Shown one piece after another: positions 44,969 through 52,994 of a DNA stretch of 64,000 nt. How positions within the stretch are numbered: the first letter of the stretch is position 1; each line of letters starts with the position of its first letter. Made by a program: the position numbers and the translations under genes. The stretch comes from Fibrobacteria bacterium (GTDB lineage Bacteria; Fibrobacterota; Fibrobacteria; UBA11236), in contig JBJHDK010000004.1 in assembly GCA_050486505.1 (NCBI GenBank), positions 2,548 to 66,547 on the forward strand, given 5' to 3'. The notes beneath the pieces are model-generated. The model was not told where the DNA came from, did no database searches, and saw only the letters and a program-made list of their open reading frames with translations.

Positions 44969-45817
44969 CTATTTCGTTCCCACTCCAAGCCACGCCTGGC
45001 CGCTCGACTCGATCGCGCCCGGCCCGTAGGTCGAGATCAGGTAGGCATGCACGCCTTCGGCAACGGCTTCCCAGCGCTCTTCGCCGAGCTTGTTCCGCAA
45101 CAACACCAACGGGGCCACCGTGCGTTGCGCCGCTTCCCAGAACTCCACAAGCGTGTCGAAGCGGTGCGTGTGACGCGCTTCATGGATCTTCACATCCTGG
45201 AACCCCGCGGCGCGCATCTCCTCCGCGAACTCTTCCACCTCACCGAGCGGGGCCTTGCCCTTGCCGAACGGAAGATCCGGCATTTGTGCCTTGATCCCCT
45301 CGATCGCGGTGCCGAACGGACCCGGCAAGGGCGCCCAGCTTGAGATCACCGCGCGACCACCGGGCTTCAGCACGCGCAAGAGTTCGCGAAACCCCGCGCC
45401 GCGATCGGGAAAGAACATGAGACCGAACATCGAGAAGGCCCCGTCGTAGGTCGCATCGGGCCATGGCAACTTTTGCCCGTCGCCCTCGTGGATCGTGATG
45501 CCCTCAATGACGGAGGCCTGGAGCCGTTTCCGGAACTGCGCCAGCATGTCGGGCGAGAAGTCGAGCGCATCGACCCGGGCGCCGATCGCGGGGTCACCCG
45601 CCGCCAACAGGGACAGCGTTCCCGGCCCGCATGCCACGTCGGCGATGCGCGCGCCCGGAGGAAGCTTCGCGAGCTTCAGCGCCTCGCGGGAGTAGTGCTC
45701 GAAGAACGGAAGCAACTCCGCGGTGTAGTCGCCGGAGACGAGGTTCCAGGGTTGTGGCGTCGCAAGGGGAGACGGCGGCGGGGTGGTGGTCATGGGGTCA
45801 ATATTAGCCGGTCGCAA
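44969..45817 (-). CDS. Class I SAM-dependent methyltransferase (Methyltransf_11-like)
   Basis: Motif I (ARIADVACGPGTLS) and post-I/II motifs (…LKPGGRAVISSW…). 282 aa. Confidence 0.83.
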   Translation of the reverse strand: MRPANIDPMTTTPPPSPLATPQPWNLVSGDYTAELLPFFEHYSREALKLAKLPPGARIADVACGPGTLSLLAAGDPAIGARVDALDFSPDMLAQFRKRLQASVIEGITIHEGDGQKLPWPDATYDGAFSMFGLMFFPDRGAGFRELLRVLKPGGRAVISSWAPLPGPFGTAIEGIKAQMPDLPFGKGKAPLGEVEEFAEEMRAAGFQDVKIHEARHTHRFDTLVEFWEAAQRTVAPLVLLRNKLGEERWEAVAEGVHAYLISTYGPGAIESSGQAWLGVGTK

Positions 45818-45848
45818 TGTAGGGGCAAATGATTATTTGCCCCTACAT
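45815..45848. repeat. Perfect 15-bp inverted repeat AATGTAGGGGCAAAT-gatt-ATTTGCCCCTACATT in the divergent methyltransferase/recF control region
   Basis: Read directly from the sequence. It is a member of a GTAGGGGC-type palindromic repeat family that recurs at 47350-47430 and 52945-52994. Confidence 0.7.
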
Positions 45849-45939
45849 TCCCTTACAGGGACCCACCACCACCCCGCCGTCCCGCGCCCCATCCACCGGA
45901 TCGCCCGCGCAGCGTACCCCCCAACTACCTTTCACCTCC

Positions 45940-47037
45940 GTGCACATCGACCGACTGACGCTTCACCATTTCCGCAATCTTCACGGCCTCGACGTGCGAC
46001 CCGCCCCGGGCCTTAACCTCATCGCCGGGCCCAACGGCCACGGCAAATCGAACCTCCTCGAAAGCGTCCATTACCTCGCGCTGGCCCACTCGGGCCGCAC
46101 CCGCAAGGACAAGGACCTGATCGCTTGGGACGCGCCCGCCGACGCGGGTTTCGTGGTCAGGGCGGAAGCCACGATCGGTGCGCGTGACCATGTGCAGTCG
46201 GTGGAATACACGGAACACGGAACGCGGGTAAAGGTGGAGGGGCTGGAGAGCAAGCGCCTCGGCGACCTGCTGGGGCATTTGCTGCTGGTGGCGTTTTCGC
46301 CCGAAGACCTGGATTTGCTCCGGGGGGGGCCGCAGGAGCGGCGCCGGTTCCTGGACGTGCTTCTGTGCCAACTCGACCCCGGCGCGCTGGACGTGCTGCG
46401 GCGCTACAGGCAGGCCCTGCGCCAGCGCAACGCAGTGCTCCGCTGGAACCCCGGCAAGGAGGAGGAGGCCCTCCTGGAGGCCTACGAGGCGACCCTCGCG
46501 GAGGCCGGCGCCGACATCGCCCGAAGGCGTCTCGACTGGGTCGAAAAACTGGCTCCGATGGCAGCCGGATTTTACCGGGAAATCAGCGGCAACGGAGAGC
46601 CCCTGACCCTGCGCGTGACCTCCGCCGCCGGAGCCTCCGAAGACCCGTCTTTATTGGCCGAAACGCTGCTCGCGAAGCTTCGTGAAAAGCGAGCCCAGGA
46701 CCGCGAAACAGGGCTCACTTCGGTCGGCCCGCACAGGGACGATTTGCTAGCTTTTCTGGCCGGAAAAACGGTGCGGGACTTCGCCTCCCAAGGGCAAAAA
46801 AGGTCCGTGGCGCTGGCCCTCAAGCTGGCCGCCGCGGGACTGCTCGAAGAGACGGCGGGCCTCCCTCCCATCCTGATTCTGGACGACGTGTTCGCCGAAC
46901 TCGACCCCGGACGCCGCGAGCGTTTCGGCGCCCTGATTGCCGGGCGCGGTCAGGCGTTCATCGCCACTCCCCGGCGCGAGGACCTCCCCTTCGCCGTGGA
47001 GTCCGTCGTGCAACTGGAGAAGGGAAAGGCGGCCTGA
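45940..47037 (+). CDS. recF: DNA replication and repair protein RecF
   Basis: Probable GTG start at 45940 (VHIDRLTLHHFRNLHGLDVRPAPGLNLIAGPNGHGKSNLLES…, containing the Walker A motif), with the signature region …GQKRSVALALKLA… and Walker B ILILDDVFAELD. Confidence 0.9.
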   Translation: MHIDRLTLHHFRNLHGLDVRPAPGLNLIAGPNGHGKSNLLESVHYLALAHSGRTRKDKDLIAWDAPADAGFVVRAEATIGARDHVQSVEYTEHGTRVKVEGLESKRLGDLLGHLLLVAFSPEDLDLLRGGPQERRRFLDVLLCQLDPGALDVLRRYRQALRQRNAVLRWNPGKEEEALLEAYEATLAEAGADIARRRLDWVEKLAPMAAGFYREISGNGEPLTLRVTSAAGASEDPSLLAETLLAKLREKRAQDRETGLTSVGPHRDDLLAFLAGKTVRDFASQGQKRSVALALKLAAAGLLEETAGLPPILILDDVFAELDPGRRERFGALIAGRGQAFIATPRREDLPFAVESVVQLEKGKAA

Positions 47038-47038
47038 C

Positions 47039-47326
47039 ATGGCGGGATCACCGGTACCCATCGGTGGCGCGTTGCAGGAAGCCCTGCGTTCGCAGGGGCT
47101 GGGCTTCCTGTTGCACGAGACCCGGTTGCGGGAGCGATGGGCCGAGATCGTGGGCGCCAGGGCGGCGGAGCTCGTGCGCCTTGAGTCGCTGAAAGATTTC
47201 GTCCTGCATGTGCGGGTGGAAAACGCGGTATGGCGCAACGAGCTGCACTACCAGCGCGAGGCCATCCGCGAGCGGGCGAACGGAATTTTGGGCGCGGAGA
47301 TCGTCCGCGAGGTGAGGTTGAAATAA
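47039..47326 (+). CDS. DUF721 domain-containing protein (the recF-gyrB intergenic gene)
   Basis: 95-aa ORF starting at an ATG that overlaps the recF stop (TGACATGG). The conserved recF-DUF721-gyrB synteny is present. Confidence 0.65.
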
Positions 47327-47344
47327 CCCCCGAAGGGGGACGAC

Positions 47345-51181: not shown

Positions 51182-51200
51182 GGGACGCTTACGCGTCCCG
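51182..51200. terminator. Bidirectional intrinsic terminator between the SIMPL gene and atpC
   Basis: aaaaaGGGACGCttacGCGTCCCgaattcattt. On the minus strand the hairpin is followed by tttttcgttt, so it terminates the atp operon. Confidence 0.5.
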
Positions 51201-51242
51201 AATTCATTTCCTTCGCTCTCCCCCCTTTGGGGGACTGGGGGG

Positions 51243-51491
51243 TTACGCTTTCTCCGCCGAATCGACCAGCACCACGCCATTGTCGTGGCTGAACTCGAAA
51301 AAGCCCGCGCTGACCTTGAACAGCAATTCCTTCTTGTCCGCGATCACGCGCACCTCGCCCGGAACCAGGCCCGAGAGAATCGGCACGTGACCCTTCAACA
51401 CTTCGAAGGAACCCTCGGCACCGGGAACACGCACGCTCTCGGCCTCGGCGTCGAAGACGGTCTTCTCGGGAGTGAGGATCTGAACCTTCAT
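51243..51491 (-). CDS. atpC: ATP synthase epsilon chain, short form (N-terminal beta-sandwich only)
   Basis: 82-aa protein MKVQILTPEKTVFDAEAESVRVPGAEGSFEVLKGHVPILSGL… that stops after the beta-sandwich. The C-terminal helical hairpin present in the 135-140-aa epsilons is absent. Confidence 0.85.
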   Translation of the reverse strand: MKVQILTPEKTVFDAEAESVRVPGAEGSFEVLKGHVPILSGLVPGEVRVIADKKELLFKVSAGFFEFSHDNGVVLVDSAEKA

Positions 51492-51493
51492 TT

Positions 51494-52915
51494 TTAACCC
51501 GCAGCCTTGATTTTCTGGGCCTTGGCGACCGCCTCATCGATGGAGCCCACCATGTAGAAGGCGTCCTCGGGCAGATCGTCGTGCTTGCCCTCGAGAATCT
51601 CGCGGAACGACCGGATCGTGTCGTCGAGCGGCACGAACTTTCCGGGGATGTTGGTGAACACCTCGGCGACGTGGAACGGCTGCGACAGGAACTTCTGCAC
51701 GCGGCGCGCGCGGTTCACCGTCTTGCGGTCTTCTTCCGAGAGCTCGTCCATGCCCAGAATCGCGATAATGTCCTGCAATTCCTTGTAGCGCTGCAACAGC
51801 GACTGCACGCCGCGCGCGGTCTCGTAATGCTCCGAGCCCACGACCTGCGGGTCGAGGATACGCGAGGTCGAATCGAGCGGATCCACGGCCGGGTAAATGC
51901 CCAGCTCGGAGATGGCGCGCGAAAGGTTGGTCGTCGCGTCGAGGTGGGCGAAGGTCGTCGCCGGCGCCGGGTCGGTGTAGTCGTCGGCGGGCACGTAAAT
52001 CGCCTGAATGGAAGTGATCGAACCATTCAGGGTCGAGGTGATGCGCTCCTGCAGGTCGCCCATCTCGGTGCCCAGCGTCGGCTGGTAGCCCACGGCCGAG
52101 GGAATGCGGCCCAGAAGCGCCGACACCTCGGAACCCGCCTGGGTGAAGCGGAACATGTTGTCCACGAAGAGGAGCACGTCCTGGTTCTGGTCGTCGCGGA
52201 AGTATTCCGCGATCGTCAGCGCCGACAGGGCGACGCGCGCGCGCGCTCCGGGCGGCTCGTTCATCTGGCCGTACACCAGGCAGGTCTTGTCGAGAACGCC
52301 CGACTCCTTCATTTCACCGTAGAGCGCCGTGCCTTCGCGCGTGCGCTCGCCCACGCCCGCGAACACGGAGTAGCCGCCGTGGTTCTTGGCGATGTTGTTG
52401 ATCAGCTCCATGATGATGACGGTCTTGCCCACGCCGGCGCCGCCGAAAAGACCGATCTTGCCGCCCTTGGCGTAGGGTGCGAGCAGGTCAACGACCTTGA
52501 TGCCGGTGACGAGCACCTCGGCCCTCGTGCTCTGGTTGGTGAACTTCGGCGGGGCCTTGTGGATGGGATCAAGGCGCTCCGACTTGACCGGACCGGCATT
52601 GTCGATGGCATCGCCCGTCACGTTCAGAATGCGACCCAAAGTGCCCACACCCACCGGCACAGAGATCGGCTTGCCCGTGTTCAGCACCTTGTTGCCGCGC
52701 ACGAGCCCGTCGGTGGTGTCCATCGCAATGGCGCGGACCTGGTTGTCGCCGAGGTGCAGCGCGACCTCGAGCACGAGATTGTTCTCGCCCTCGCCGATGA
52801 ACGGGTTCGTGGTCTTGAGGGCGGTGTTGAGGGCGGGAAGCTCCGCGCCCGCGAAGCTCACGTCCACCACGGGACCCATGACGGCGGTGATTGTTCCAAG
52901 GTTTTTGTCAGACAT
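51494..52915 (-). CDS. atpD: ATP synthase subunit beta
   Basis: Walker A motif GGAGVGKTV and DELSEED-like loop ([10 protein letters not shown]). Confidence 0.97.
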
Positions 52916-52944
52916 TTTGTTTCTCCGTTAATTCATTGCCGAGG

Positions 52945-52994
52945 CGTAGGGGCAAATGATGGGGCGCAAGCGCCTGGCACAATTTGCCCCTACG
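52945..52994. repeat. Inverted repeat CGTAGGGGCAAAT…ATTTGCCCCTACG with a nested GGCGC-aa-GCGCC hairpin, in the atpG-atpD intergenic region
   Basis: 13-bp arms separated by 24 nt. It belongs to the same GTAGGGGCAAAT palindrome family as the element at 45815-45848. Confidence 0.6.

What the first reader, a model, noticed from the sequence alone, without database searches (positions are those of the whole stretch)
45815..52994. Family of GTAGGGGC(AAAT)-type palindromic elements at three intergenic loci
Three loci carry it:
- 45815-45848: AATGTAGGGGCAAAT-gatt-ATTTGCCCCTACATT, a perfect 15-bp inverted repeat.
- 52945-52994: CGTAGGGGCAAAT-N24-ATTTGCCCCTACG, the same arms around a nested GGCGC-aa-GCGCC hairpin.
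- 47345-47430: two tandem hairpins starting TGTAGGGGCGAC… and CGTAAGGGCGAC…
The shared (T)GTAGGGGC core with variable spacer or loop resembles REP/BIME-like extragenic palindromes, possibly mobilised by a RAYT transposase encoded elsewhere, or binding sites of a single DNA/RNA-binding factor. One copy lies in the recF/methyltransferase divergent promoter region, one inside the atp operon between atpG and atpD, and one in the gyrB leader.
Basis: seen in the sequence. Interest (0 to 1): 0.55.

Follow-up and report, generated by a model that had tools for sequence, protein, structure and literature searches.

The report
GTAG-headed REP hairpins, RAYT-type
These are copies of a known class of small selfish DNA hairpins (REP elements), elsewhere found beside a tyrosine transposase (RAYT subclass 2.4) thought to mobilise them, here seen in an uncultured Fibrobacteria genome: a real feature, but an ordinary one.

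Summary
The window has three "double-foot" palindromes (GTAGGGGC-NNNN-loop-NNNN-GCCCCTAC) at 45816-45849, 52945-52994 and a newly found 10755-10784. It also has two single-foot hairpins (GTAG/GTAA+GGGCGAC…GTCGCCC) at 47356-47380 and 47406-47429, and a weaker candidate at 42086-42129. The core octamer occurs 7 times against 0.9 expected.

The elements match REPs published for TnpA(REP)/RAYT subclass 2.4 (Quentin et al. 2018): three G-C pairs at the stem base, plus a "double foot" variant. That paper's REPtron table lists the same arms: GTAGGGGCAAAT…ATTTGCCC, GTAGGGGCGAAT…, GTAGGGGCGACGC…GCGTCGCCC, and 28-nt 12+4+12 forms.

Exact copies of the 28-mer occur in more than 118 genome loci across many phyla and in 22 viral contigs, with unrelated flanks and an intergenic bias. 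The outer 8 nt are constant and the inner 4 stem pairs covary.

Orthologous atpG–atpD and nuoG–nuoH junctions in relatives lack the element, so it is a lineage-specific insertion.

No RAYT gene lies in the 64 kb, and the rest of the genome could not be searched.

This is a new member of a known kind and of low interest.

The parts
45816..45849 (.). Double-foot REP. The core 28-mer at 45819-45846 is GTAGGGGCAAAT-gatt-ATTTGCCCCTAC, extended to 15-nt arms by AAT/ATT. It lies between the methyltransferase start (45793, - strand) and the recF GTG (45940, + strand).
   Evidence: I17; z -4.7 and -5.5. The same arm appears in Table S1 HinfB01.
52945..52994 (.). Double-foot REP with a 24-nt insert in the loop. 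Arms are 52946-52957 and 52982-52993, with a nested GGCGC-aa-GCGCC hairpin at 52963-52974. It lies in the atpG (stop 52998) to atpD (start 52915) intercistronic spacer on the - strand.
   Evidence: I24; dG -33.3, z -3.5. The same sequence is on the independent Logan contig L119. It is absent from the orthologous junctions L120-L124.
47356..47380 (+). Single-foot ('canonical') REP: GTAG + GGGCGACGC-gct-GCGTCGCCC, in the DUF721→gyrB spacer.
   Evidence: It has the same stem (GGGCGACGC/GCGTCGCCC) as the Table S1 CaggA01 entry GTAGGGGCGACGCGGCGCGTCGCCC; only the 3-nt loop differs.
47406..47429 (+). Single-foot REP with a degenerate head: GTAA + GGGCGACC-catg-GGTCGCCC. It sits head-to-tail with the previous element, 15 nt before the gyrB ATG (47445).
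   Evidence: A near-identical copy, GTAAGGCCGACCCATGGGTCGCCC, is in the Fibrobacteria MAG locus L076.
10755..10784 (.). Decayed double-foot REP, read on the - strand as TGTAAGGGCGAATAATTATTCGCCCCAACA. It lies inside the 3' end of the nuoG reading frame (translated VRANNYSPQ), just before the ATGA overlap with nuoH.
   Evidence: I20; z -4.1.
42086..42129 (+). Candidate REP variant: GTAG + GGCGAGC…GCTCGCC around a nested CCCGG-tcttcg-CCGGG hairpin. Its TAG is the stop codon of ORF 40605-42089.
   Evidence: z only -2.1, 6 of 200 shuffles as good. Tentative.

Best explanation
These are REP elements (repetitive extragenic palindromes) of the GTAG-tagged superfamily. More precisely, they are the two REP forms that accompany TnpA(REP)/RAYT subclass 2.4 (Bertels group 4). 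The 'canonical' form has a 5' GTAG foot followed by a stem whose base is three G-C pairs (the gyrB-leader pair). The 'double-foot' form carries GTAG at the 5' end and CTAC at the 3' end, so both strands present the same GTAG-footed hairpin (the recF-upstream, atpG-atpD and nuoG-nuoH copies).

Inferred mechanism, taken from work on other RAYTs. When the DNA is single-stranded, for example at the replication fork, the element folds into a hairpin. A Y1/HUH tyrosine transposase encoded once elsewhere in the genome then binds the foot (GTAG) plus the base of the stem (GGGC/GCCC). It tolerates any upper stem as long as it pairs, cleaves at a nearby CT/CA, and rejoins the DNA, which spreads copies into permissive sites between genes.

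Once inserted in transcribed spacers, the copies also form very stable RNA hairpins without a U-tract. These may secondarily affect mRNA stability or translation of the flanking cistrons.

Shown here: anatomy, enrichment, sequence identity to published REPtron-associated REPs, covariation of the upper stem, intergenic bias, and presence/absence at orthologous sites.

Inferred: that a subclass 2.4 RAYT exists in this genome and mobilises them, and any effect on RNA.
For: (1) Enrichment and folding.

(2) Class definition: Quentin et al. 2018 (PMC6006769, section 13) state that subclass 2.4 has canonical REPs whose stem bottom is 3 consecutive G-C pairs, and 'double foot' REPs with 5' GT[AG]G and 3' C[TC]AC. 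They report the subclass as abundant in Cyanobacteria and Bacteroidetes and scattered over many phyla.

(3) Table S1 of that paper lists these REPs next to 2.4 tnpA genes: GTAGGGGCAAATTACATTTGCCC, GTAGGGGCGAATTGCATTCGCCC, GTAGGGGCGACGCGGCGCGTCGCCC, GTAGGGGCGACCCGGCGGGTCGCCC, and the 28-nt double-foot forms GTAGGGGCGAAAAATTTTTCGCCCCTAC and GTAGGGGCGACCGGCCGGTCGCCCCTAC. These are the window's arms and format.

(4) The genome scan found more than 118 loci with the exact dyad in many phyla, and the viral scan found 22 contigs. Flanks are unrelated. That taxonomic spread resembles the one published for subclass 2.4.

(5) The head and stem base are constant while the four inner pairs covary. Eight of 9 independent 28-mers have fully complementary inner arms. 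In the pair count, 98 % of cells are paired, 16 cells show double-sided changes, and 0 of 500 shuffles reach this.

(6) Intergenic bias: 41 of 123 dyads are spanned by an open frame, against 84 % of random positions.

(7) No gene family is linked in cis, as expected for dispersed non-autonomous elements.

(8) Lineage-specific presence. The atpG-atpD junction is empty in L123 and L124 and differently filled in L120-L122. The nuoG 3' end lacks the hairpin in L148 and L149.

(9) Another Fibrobacteria MAG (L076) carries both subtypes.

(10) Mechanistic background on GTAG guide and stem recognition and CT/CA cleavage: Corneloup et al. 2021 (PMC8266576).
Against: No Y1/HUH transposase gene is present in the 64-kb window. 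None lies within about 4 kb of any of the roughly 150 sampled copies in other genomes and viral contigs. The only RAYT-like genes I saw directly (L070, L150) are flanked by other GTAG families. My baits were written from memory and demonstrably reach subclasses 2.2 and 2.6, not clearly 2.4.

The link to subclass 2.4 therefore rests on the published table and not on a REPtron I observed.

Filled and empty sites are too diverged to show a clean insertion boundary.

Transposition by any RAYT has been demonstrated only in vitro, as cleavage and strand transfer (PMC8266576).
Confidence: 0.85

Rival explanations
1. Host-selected RNA hairpins. The palindromes are kept, whatever their origin, because in the transcript they act as intercistronic stability, processing or translation-tuning elements in the atp, nuo and recF-gyrB operons.
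For: Three of four loci lie between co-directional genes of one operon. The RNA folds are very stable. Four different Fibrobacteria lineages carry four unrelated hairpin-forming inserts at the same atpG-atpD position, while two have none, which could mean selection for any hairpin there. Published work attributes mRNA-stabilising roles to REPs (PMC3733652).
Against: This does not explain why the same 28-mer occurs at unrelated loci and in many phyla and phages. One copy sits in a divergent promoter region where both orientations would be transcribed differently. Two close relatives do without any insert. The spacer may simply be a permissive landing site. This rival is compatible with the main explanation as a secondary exaptation, not as an origin.
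Confidence: 0.25
2. Operator sites of a single dimeric DNA-binding regulator, which recognises the 12-4-12 dyad in double-stranded DNA and co-regulates recF/gyrB, atp and nuo genes.
For: The dyad symmetry is perfect with fixed 4-nt spacing. One copy lies in a divergent promoter region.
Against: The inner arm positions vary with compensatory changes, not sequence conservation. The atp copy has its half-sites 24 nt apart instead of 4. The gyrB-leader copies lack the second half-site. Copies lie in intercistronic spacers and in a coding 3' end, not at promoters. No gene is shared next to copies in 118 loci. The sites are absent at orthologous positions in relatives.
Confidence: 0.03
3. Intrinsic (Rho-independent) transcription terminators, or chance GC-rich palindromes in a 63 % GC genome.
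For: The elements are GC-rich stem-loops located after stop codons.
Against: No U/T tract follows any copy, and the terminator scan does not call them. They sit inside operons whose downstream genes must be transcribed. Shuffles never reach the observed counts. The same sequence recurs across phyla.
Confidence: 0.02
4. Remnant terminal inverted repeats of a MITE or IS moved by a DDE transposase: two 12-bp TIRs left after internal deletion.
For: The two identical arms in inverted orientation are formally like a minimal MITE. In Desulfacinum the dyad is embedded in a longer repeat.
Against: No target-site duplication is visible, and flanks are unrelated. No DDE transposase or longer element with these ends was seen in 1.2 Mb of flanking DNA. 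Single-foot versions with only one GTAG exist, and the covarying upper stem fits hairpin recognition by a single-strand HUH enzyme, not TIR recognition.
Confidence: 0.03

Closest known systems
REPs associated with TnpA(REP)/RAYT subclass 2.4 (Bertels group 4), 'canonical long' and 'double foot' types (Quentin et al. 2018, BMC Genomics 19:475, PMC6006769)
   Same: They share the 5' GTAG foot, three G-C pairs at the stem base, and a double-foot variant with 3' CTAC in a 12+4+12 = 28-nt format. The arm sequences are identical: GGGCAAAT, GGGCGAAT, GGGCGACGC, GGGCGACCC. The two forms coexist in one genome, as in the CaggA01 entries, where each form flanks a different 2.4 tnpA gene. The multi-phylum distribution also agrees. 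Long versions with extra sequence inside the arms are listed too, comparable to the atp copy.
   Different: The host is a Fibrobacteria-class MAG; the word 'Fibrobacter' does not occur in the paper's main text. No cognate tnpA(REP) has been seen for this genome. One copy is translated as the C-terminal tail of NuoG. In my samples the very same 28-mer also turns up in prophage and viral contigs.
GTAG-tagged REP superfamily (Di Nocera et al. 2013, BMC Genomics 14:522, PMC3733652)
   Same: These are also 20-40 bp GC-rich palindromes tagged by GTAG. They are mostly intergenic and preferentially lie between unidirectional genes close to the upstream stop. GTAG sometimes supplies the TAG stop, and occasional copies lie inside the 3' ends of ORFs. 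Head-to-tail, head-head and tail-tail groupings are described.
   Different: That paper defines the tag as an unpaired motif at one end. Here the main form has the tag at both ends, where it pairs. Whether this family equals one of its 24 GTAG families could not be checked, because the figure with the consensus sequences is not held.
E. coli REP/BIME with TnpA(REP) (subclass 2.2; structure 4ER8) and Pseudomonas/Stenotrophomonas REPs/REPINs (subclass 2.5)
   Same: They share the GTAG guide, hairpin recognition on single-stranded DNA by a single-copy domesticated HUH-Y1 enzyme, and dispersal in extragenic space.
   Different: E. coli REPs are longer, with an obligatory bulge. REPINs are two inverted REPs separated by a linker. 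Here the stems are perfect, there is no bulge, the window has no inverted doublet with a linker, and strand asymmetry is lost in the double-foot form.
Small dispersed repeats (SDR) and heptamer-repeat contexts of Nostocaceae (Elhai et al. 2008, recalled from memory, not read here)
   Same: These are also very small (21-27 nt) hairpin-forming dispersed elements, with nested insertions and an association with tandem heptamer repeats.
   Different: The sequences are different and have no GTAG foot. A relation is only a lead suggested by the heptamer-repeat hairpins seen in this window and in relatives.

Membership tests
GTAG-tagged REP superfamily | Conserved GT[AG]G tetranucleotide directly 5' of a short stem-loop | tested here: met
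   GTAG is present at 45819, 52946, 47356 and 42086, and on the opposite strand at 45846 and 52993. GTAA/GTTG (decayed heads) occur at 47406 and at 10783/10756.
GTAG-tagged REP superfamily | 20-50 nt GC-based palindrome able to fold as a hairpin | tested here: met
   The elements are 24-50 nt, with z-scores from -3.5 to -5.5 against dinucleotide shuffles.
GTAG-tagged REP superfamily | Repeated, dispersed copies in the genome (tens to thousands) | tested here: inconclusive
   There are 5 firm copies and 1 candidate at 5 loci in 64 kb.
GTAG-tagged REP superfamily | Predominantly extragenic, mostly between unidirectional or convergent genes near the upstream stop | tested here: met
   In the window, 3 loci lie between co-directional genes, 1 lies between divergent genes, and 1 overlaps a 3' coding end. 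Across 123 copies elsewhere, 33 % are spanned by an open frame against 84 % of random positions.
REPs of TnpA(REP) subclass 2.4 | Bottom of the stem made of three consecutive G-C pairs after the foot | tested here: met
   Every copy has GTAG-GGG(C)…(G)CCC. The pair table shows columns 5-8/21-24 invariant G-C/C-G. The definition is in PMC6006769.
REPs of TnpA(REP) subclass 2.4 | 'Double foot': 5' GT[AG]G and its complement C[TC]AC at the 3' end | tested here: met
   45819-45846 and 52946-52993 are exact. 10756-10783 is a decayed version (GTAA…CAAC).
REPs of TnpA(REP) subclass 2.4 | Sequence match to REPs recorded in subclass 2.4 REPtrons | tested here: met
   Table S1 entries HinfB01, ChutA01, CaggA01, CaerA01 and RmarA01 carry the same arms and the same 28/29-nt format.
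REPs of TnpA(REP) subclass 2.4 | A subclass 2.4 tnpA(REP) gene (NH[IFV]H…WQ…YIxNNP) in the same genome, flanked by these REPs (REPtron) | not testable with these tools
   None was found in the 64-kb window by tblastn with six baits or by the HUH…Y motif scan.
BIME / REPIN | Two REPs in inverted orientation separated by a linker, acting as one unit | tested here: not met
   The only adjacent pair (47356 and 47406) is head-to-tail on the same strand. The double-foot forms are single hairpins and not linked doublets.
Intrinsic terminator | GC-rich hairpin followed by a U/T tract | tested here: not met
   No T-run follows any copy, and the scan does not call them.
Any curated RNA family (Rfam 15) | Covariance-model match at the gathering score | tested here: not met
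   There are 0 matches in the whole window.

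The most novel reading that the evidence does not exclude
The double-foot 28-mer is more than a passive RAYT passenger. Nearly the same 28 nt (outer 8+8 invariant) is found in genomes with 32-70 % GC from well over ten phyla, and in Mu-like and other prophage or viral contigs. No transposase was seen near any of about 150 sampled copies. In Fibrobacteria, the atpG-atpD and nuoF-nuoG spacers repeatedly acquire some hairpin, either a REP or a heptamer-repeat stem. 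This could reflect either (a) ongoing inter-phylum spread of a REP/RAYT 2.4 pair carried by phages, or (b) recurrent host recruitment of such hairpins as intercistronic RNA elements that set subunit stoichiometry in respiratory operons.
Probability: 0.12. Interest if true: 0.55.

Novelty: new member of a known kind. Interest (0 to 1): 0.22.

Why it matters
The value is mainly for annotation. These hairpins explain odd features of this contig: a spurious ORF start inside the recF-upstream palindrome, a 9-residue REP-encoded stretch (VRANNYSPQ) in the C-terminal tail of NuoG, and an 82-nt spacer inside the atp operon. They also predict that the genome carries, or recently carried, one or two subclass 2.4 RAYT genes.

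The finding places this REP type in a Fibrobacteria-class MAG. The wide survey gives a simple recognisable signature (GTAGGGGC-N4-loop-N4-GCCCCTAC, upper stem covarying) that could be used to mask or annotate such elements in metagenome assemblies.

If the hairpins prove to influence atp or nuo mRNA, they would be an example of selfish DNA recruited for operon tuning. Nothing here shows that.

Tried and rejected
(1) Exact-protein look-up of GyrB to find the source contig: not on record. AtpG gave only a 2-kb Logan contig with the same sequence, so the rest of the genome stayed out of reach.

(2) An unbiased search for a gene family linked to the dyad (all-vs-all BLAST of 3,599 ORFs from 118 loci): the largest cluster touched only 10 of the 118 loci. 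One smaller cluster lay right next to the dyads, but it proved to be NHL-repeat paralogues of SAR202/Dehalococcoidia with the dyad after their stop codon, so they are passengers.

(3) RAYT hunting with six from-memory baits and HUH…Y motif scans over the window plus about 1.2 Mb of loci. The only hit was L070, whose REP is GTAGGGTGGGC… and not ours. A motif hit in L105 was a spurious frame.

(4) L126, where inverted hairpin clusters bracket 2 kb, looked like a REPtron. It encodes phage lysis genes inside a Mu-like prophage.

(5) The search for related loci with a Bacteroidota-type RAYT bait in viral contigs found nothing.

(6) tblastn of that bait on plasmids gave real Y1 transposases, but of other subclasses: L150 is a GTAGGGTGCGC REPtron, and L152/L153 have atypical structures.

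(7) blastn of a 30-nt dyad against plasmids gave no match, probably because of the low-complexity filter.

(8) A literature search for the exact 12-mers in running text found only unrelated primers. The sequences appear only in the supplementary table of PMC6006769.

(9) The operator, terminator, MITE and chance explanations were rejected for the reasons given under the rival explanations.

Full report
**Observation**

The three loci exist as described.
- The atp copy has 13-nt perfect arms at 52945-52957 and 52982-52994 around 24 nt that contain GGCGC-aa-GCGCC (I24).
- The gyrB leader has two tandem hairpins on the + strand: GTAG+GGGCGACGC-gct-GCGTCGCCC (47356-47380) and GTAA+GGGCGACC-catg-GGTCGCCC (47406-47429).

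GTAGGGGC occurs 7 times against 0.93 expected, with 0 of 100 shuffles reaching 7. The exact 12-mer occurs four times. A systematic scan added a fourth palindromic locus at 10755-10784 (TGTTGGGGCGAATAA/TTATTCGCCCTTACA; I20). It also added a weaker candidate at 42086-42129, whose GTAG provides the TAG stop of the upstream ORF. All firm copies fold far better than dinucleotide shuffles (z -3.5 to -5.5), and none is followed by a U-tract. Rfam has no match anywhere in the window.

**Context**

- 45816-45849 lies between a class I methyltransferase (- strand, start 45793) and recF (+ strand, GTG 45940).
- The tandem pair lies between a DUF721 gene and gyrB.
- 52945-52994 lies between atpG and atpD.
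- The new copy sits at the nuoG/nuoH junction.

AtpG and NuoG homologues identify the organism as a Fibrobacteria-class MAG. The named relatives at 72-74 % identity are labelled 'Fibrobacteria bacterium', and the identical proteins sit on a 73-kb NCBI contig.

**Distribution beyond the window**

My own estimate of the chance expectation is below one hit. The hits came from Dehalococcoidia/SAR202, Chloroflexaceae, many cyanobacteria, Bacteroidales, Desulfacinum, Polyangiaceae, Pseudomonas/Stutzerimonas, Chromatiaceae, Planctomycetota, Fibrobacteria, Omnitrophota, Endomicrobiia, Gracilibacteria and others.

Almost all copies are 28 nt (12+4+12). The centre is usually AATT, GATT/AATC, GATC or GGCC. 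Flanks are unrelated, and locus GC ranges from 32 to 70 %. Twenty-two viral or prophage contigs also carry the dyad. The copies avoid coding sequence: 41 of 123 are spanned by a long open frame, against 84 % of random positions in the same loci. No protein family is consistently adjacent.

**What is conserved**

Within the roughly 1.2 Mb of fetched DNA there are many further hairpins with the same head but other upper stems. Examples are GACC/GGTC, GACG/CGTC, GGGT/ACCC, GAAC/GTTC, GGAC/GTCC, ACAT/ATGT and AAAA/TTTT. There are also single-foot versions without the 3' CTAC.

Nine distinct GTAGGGGC-N12-GCCCCTAC 28-mers had an inner arm that was not part of my search pattern. Eight of them have perfectly complementary inner arms, against 1/256 each by chance. 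On a 13-sequence alignment, 98 % of cells pair and all four inner pairs show double-sided changes (16 cells). None of 500 shuffles reaches this, and pairing falls below 50 % when partners are slid.

So the foot (GTAG) and stem base (GGGC) are sequence-constrained, while the upper stem is only structure-constrained. That is the pattern expected for recognition of a folded single strand. It is not the pattern expected for a duplex operator.

**Identification**

- Di Nocera et al. 2013 (PMC3733652) define the GTAG-tagged REP superfamily and its typical positions. REPs lie close to upstream stop codons, the GTAG sometimes donates the TAG stop, and copies occasionally lie inside ORF ends.
- Quentin et al. 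2018 (PMC6006769) describe two REP types for TnpA(REP) subclass 2.4 (Bertels group 4). 'Canonical' REPs have a stem bottom of three consecutive G-C pairs. 'Double foot' REPs have 5' GT[AG]G and 3' C[TC]AC. [quoted passage not shown]
- Their Table S1 of REPs found in REPtrons contains 'GTAGGGGC' 105 times and lists the window's arms:
  - GTAGGGGCAAATTACATTTGCCC (HinfB01)
  - GTAGGGGCGAATTGCATTCGCCC (ChutA01)
  - GTAGGGGCGACGCGGCGCGTCGCCC and GTAGGGGCGACCCGGCGGGTCGCCC (CaggA01, ACL26169.1)
  - the 28/29-nt double-foot forms GTAGGGGCGAAAAATTTTTCGCCCCTAC (CaerA01), GTAGGGGCGACCGGCCGGTCGCCCCTAC (CaggA01, ACL24704.1) and GTAGGGGCGACGCGCCGCGTCGCCCCTAC (RmarA01)

In the CaggA01 entries the single-foot and double-foot forms flank different 2.4 paralogues. 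This suggests the two forms in this window may likewise answer to two enzymes. Long versions with extra sequence between the arms are also listed, comparable to the atp copy.

**Mobility and turnover**

The atpG-atpD junction of relatives is either empty or filled by a different insert.
- Empty: L123 has TAA-cgaagaagctt-ACGGAGAAAC…ATG, and L124 has an overlapping stop and start.
- Filled differently: L120, L121 and L122 each carry a hairpin built from inverted runs of a different short repeat unit, clearly 7 nt in L122.

The nuoG 3' end of the closest relative (85 % identity, L148) runs …LRADAANRVPA-TGA with the ATGA overlap to nuoH. The window instead has GAT-[GTAAGGGCGAATAATTATTCGCCCCAAC]-AGGGAACTCCGGCATGA. 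Its hairpin is translated as VRANNYSPQ, and the overlap with nuoH is kept.

Thus at two orthologous sites the element is specific to this lineage. Another Fibrobacteria MAG (L076) carries both subtypes elsewhere.

**The missing enzyme**

No HUH-Y1 gene is present in the window or near any sampled copy. I did see REPtrons directly, but for other GTAG families.
- L070 is a RAYT-like gene with an in-frame stop, flanked by CGTAGGGTGGGCTGTGCCCACCC.
- L150 is a Chloroflexota plasmid transposase with DHIH…YIHYNP motifs, flanked by inverted GTAGGGTGCGC doublets.

My baits did not reach subclass 2.4. The assignment to that subclass therefore rests on the published table and not on a REPtron I observed. 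The mechanism is inferred from Corneloup et al. 2021 (PMC8266576): binding of the folded single strand, GTAG acting as guide and strand discriminator, and cleavage at a nearby CT or CA.

**Rivals**

- A duplex operator is contradicted by the covarying arms, by the 24-nt spacing in the atp copy, by the single-foot copies, and by the lack of any shared neighbouring gene.
- Intrinsic terminators are excluded by the absence of a U-tract and by the intra-operon positions.
- A DDE-type MITE remnant lacks target duplications and any parent element.
- A secondary RNA role in the atp and nuo transcripts is possible. The recurrent, independent hairpin inserts at the atpG-atpD junction in relatives hint at it, but it is untested.

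**Verdict**

This is a real, non-random repeat family. It is a new member of a known kind, in a Fibrobacteria MAG, and interest is low. The only mildly unusual aspects are the very wide occurrence of an almost invariant 28-mer, including in prophages, and the hairpin turnover at operon junctions.

Noticed in passing
window 12234-12349: A long imperfect hairpin whose arms are tandem heptamers: (GGACAAT/GGACAGT)n against (CCATTGT/CCACTGT)n, 81-85 % complementary. It lies immediately upstream of nuoG and overlaps the longest ORF's apparent N-terminus. It is not related to the GTAG elements.
   Followed up: partly
L120 1250-1345; L121 1283-1395; L122 1343-1445 (atpG-atpD spacers of relatives): Each relative carries a different hairpin at the same operon junction, built from inverted runs of a short repeat unit (clearly 7 nt in L122). 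L123 and L124 have no insert there. This suggests either a second, unrelated family of repeat-built hairpins in Fibrobacteria, or selection for any hairpin at this junction.
   Followed up: partly
window 62067-62084 and 62137-62154: The 18-bp perfect palindrome ATGTTTCACGTGAAACAT occurs twice, 70 bp apart, in an intergenic region. The second copy extends to CCGGTCGATGTTTCAC/GTGAAACATCGACCGG (62130-62161). It looks like a pair of operator sites for a dimeric regulator.
   Followed up: no
window 10739-10783 (- strand): The last residues of NuoG (…GD-VRANNYSPQ-QGTPA*) are encoded by the REP hairpin. Homologues at 81-85 % identity have short, variable tails without it, and the ATGA stop/start overlap with nuoH is preserved.
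   Followed up: yes
window 47327-47339: A small CCCCC-gaa-GGGGG hairpin lies directly after the DUF721 stop codon. The gyrB leader therefore carries three consecutive hairpins.
   Followed up: no
L126 963-1057, 3062-3149, 5168-5255, 6646-6673: This is a Mu-like prophage contig (GemA, Gp27, terminase, GH108 endolysin). It carries clusters of three different GTAGGGGC-type hairpins, and two clusters are inverted copies bracketing the lysis genes. REPs of this family therefore colonise, or are carried by, phage genomes.
   Followed up: partly
L004, L034, L039, L077, L089, L115 (Desulfacinum): In Desulfacinum the 28-mer is always embedded in a longer species-specific repeat (…gcgcgcggcct[dyad]aggggcctgcttcccaaaggtgcgt…). 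This is a composite or nested element.
   Followed up: no
L070 1219-1241, 1349-1870, 1905-1926, 1993-2014; L150 1893-1958, 2001-2552, 2556-2921: Two REPtrons of other GTAG families were seen directly. One is a Planctomycetota RAYT-like gene with an in-frame stop, flanked by CGTAGGGTGGGCTGTGCCCACCC, almost the same REP as published for Haemophilus. The other is a Chloroflexota plasmid RAYT flanked by repeated inverted GTAGGGTGCGC doublets.
   Followed up: partly
L122 2963-3211; L123 12327-12581; L124 12343-12591; window about 51243-51491 (- strand): The ATP synthase epsilon subunit in this lineage is only 82-84 aa in the relatives, where only the N-terminal domain family (PF02823) is recorded. 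It seems to lack the usual C-terminal helical domain. The window gene itself was not scanned.
   Followed up: no
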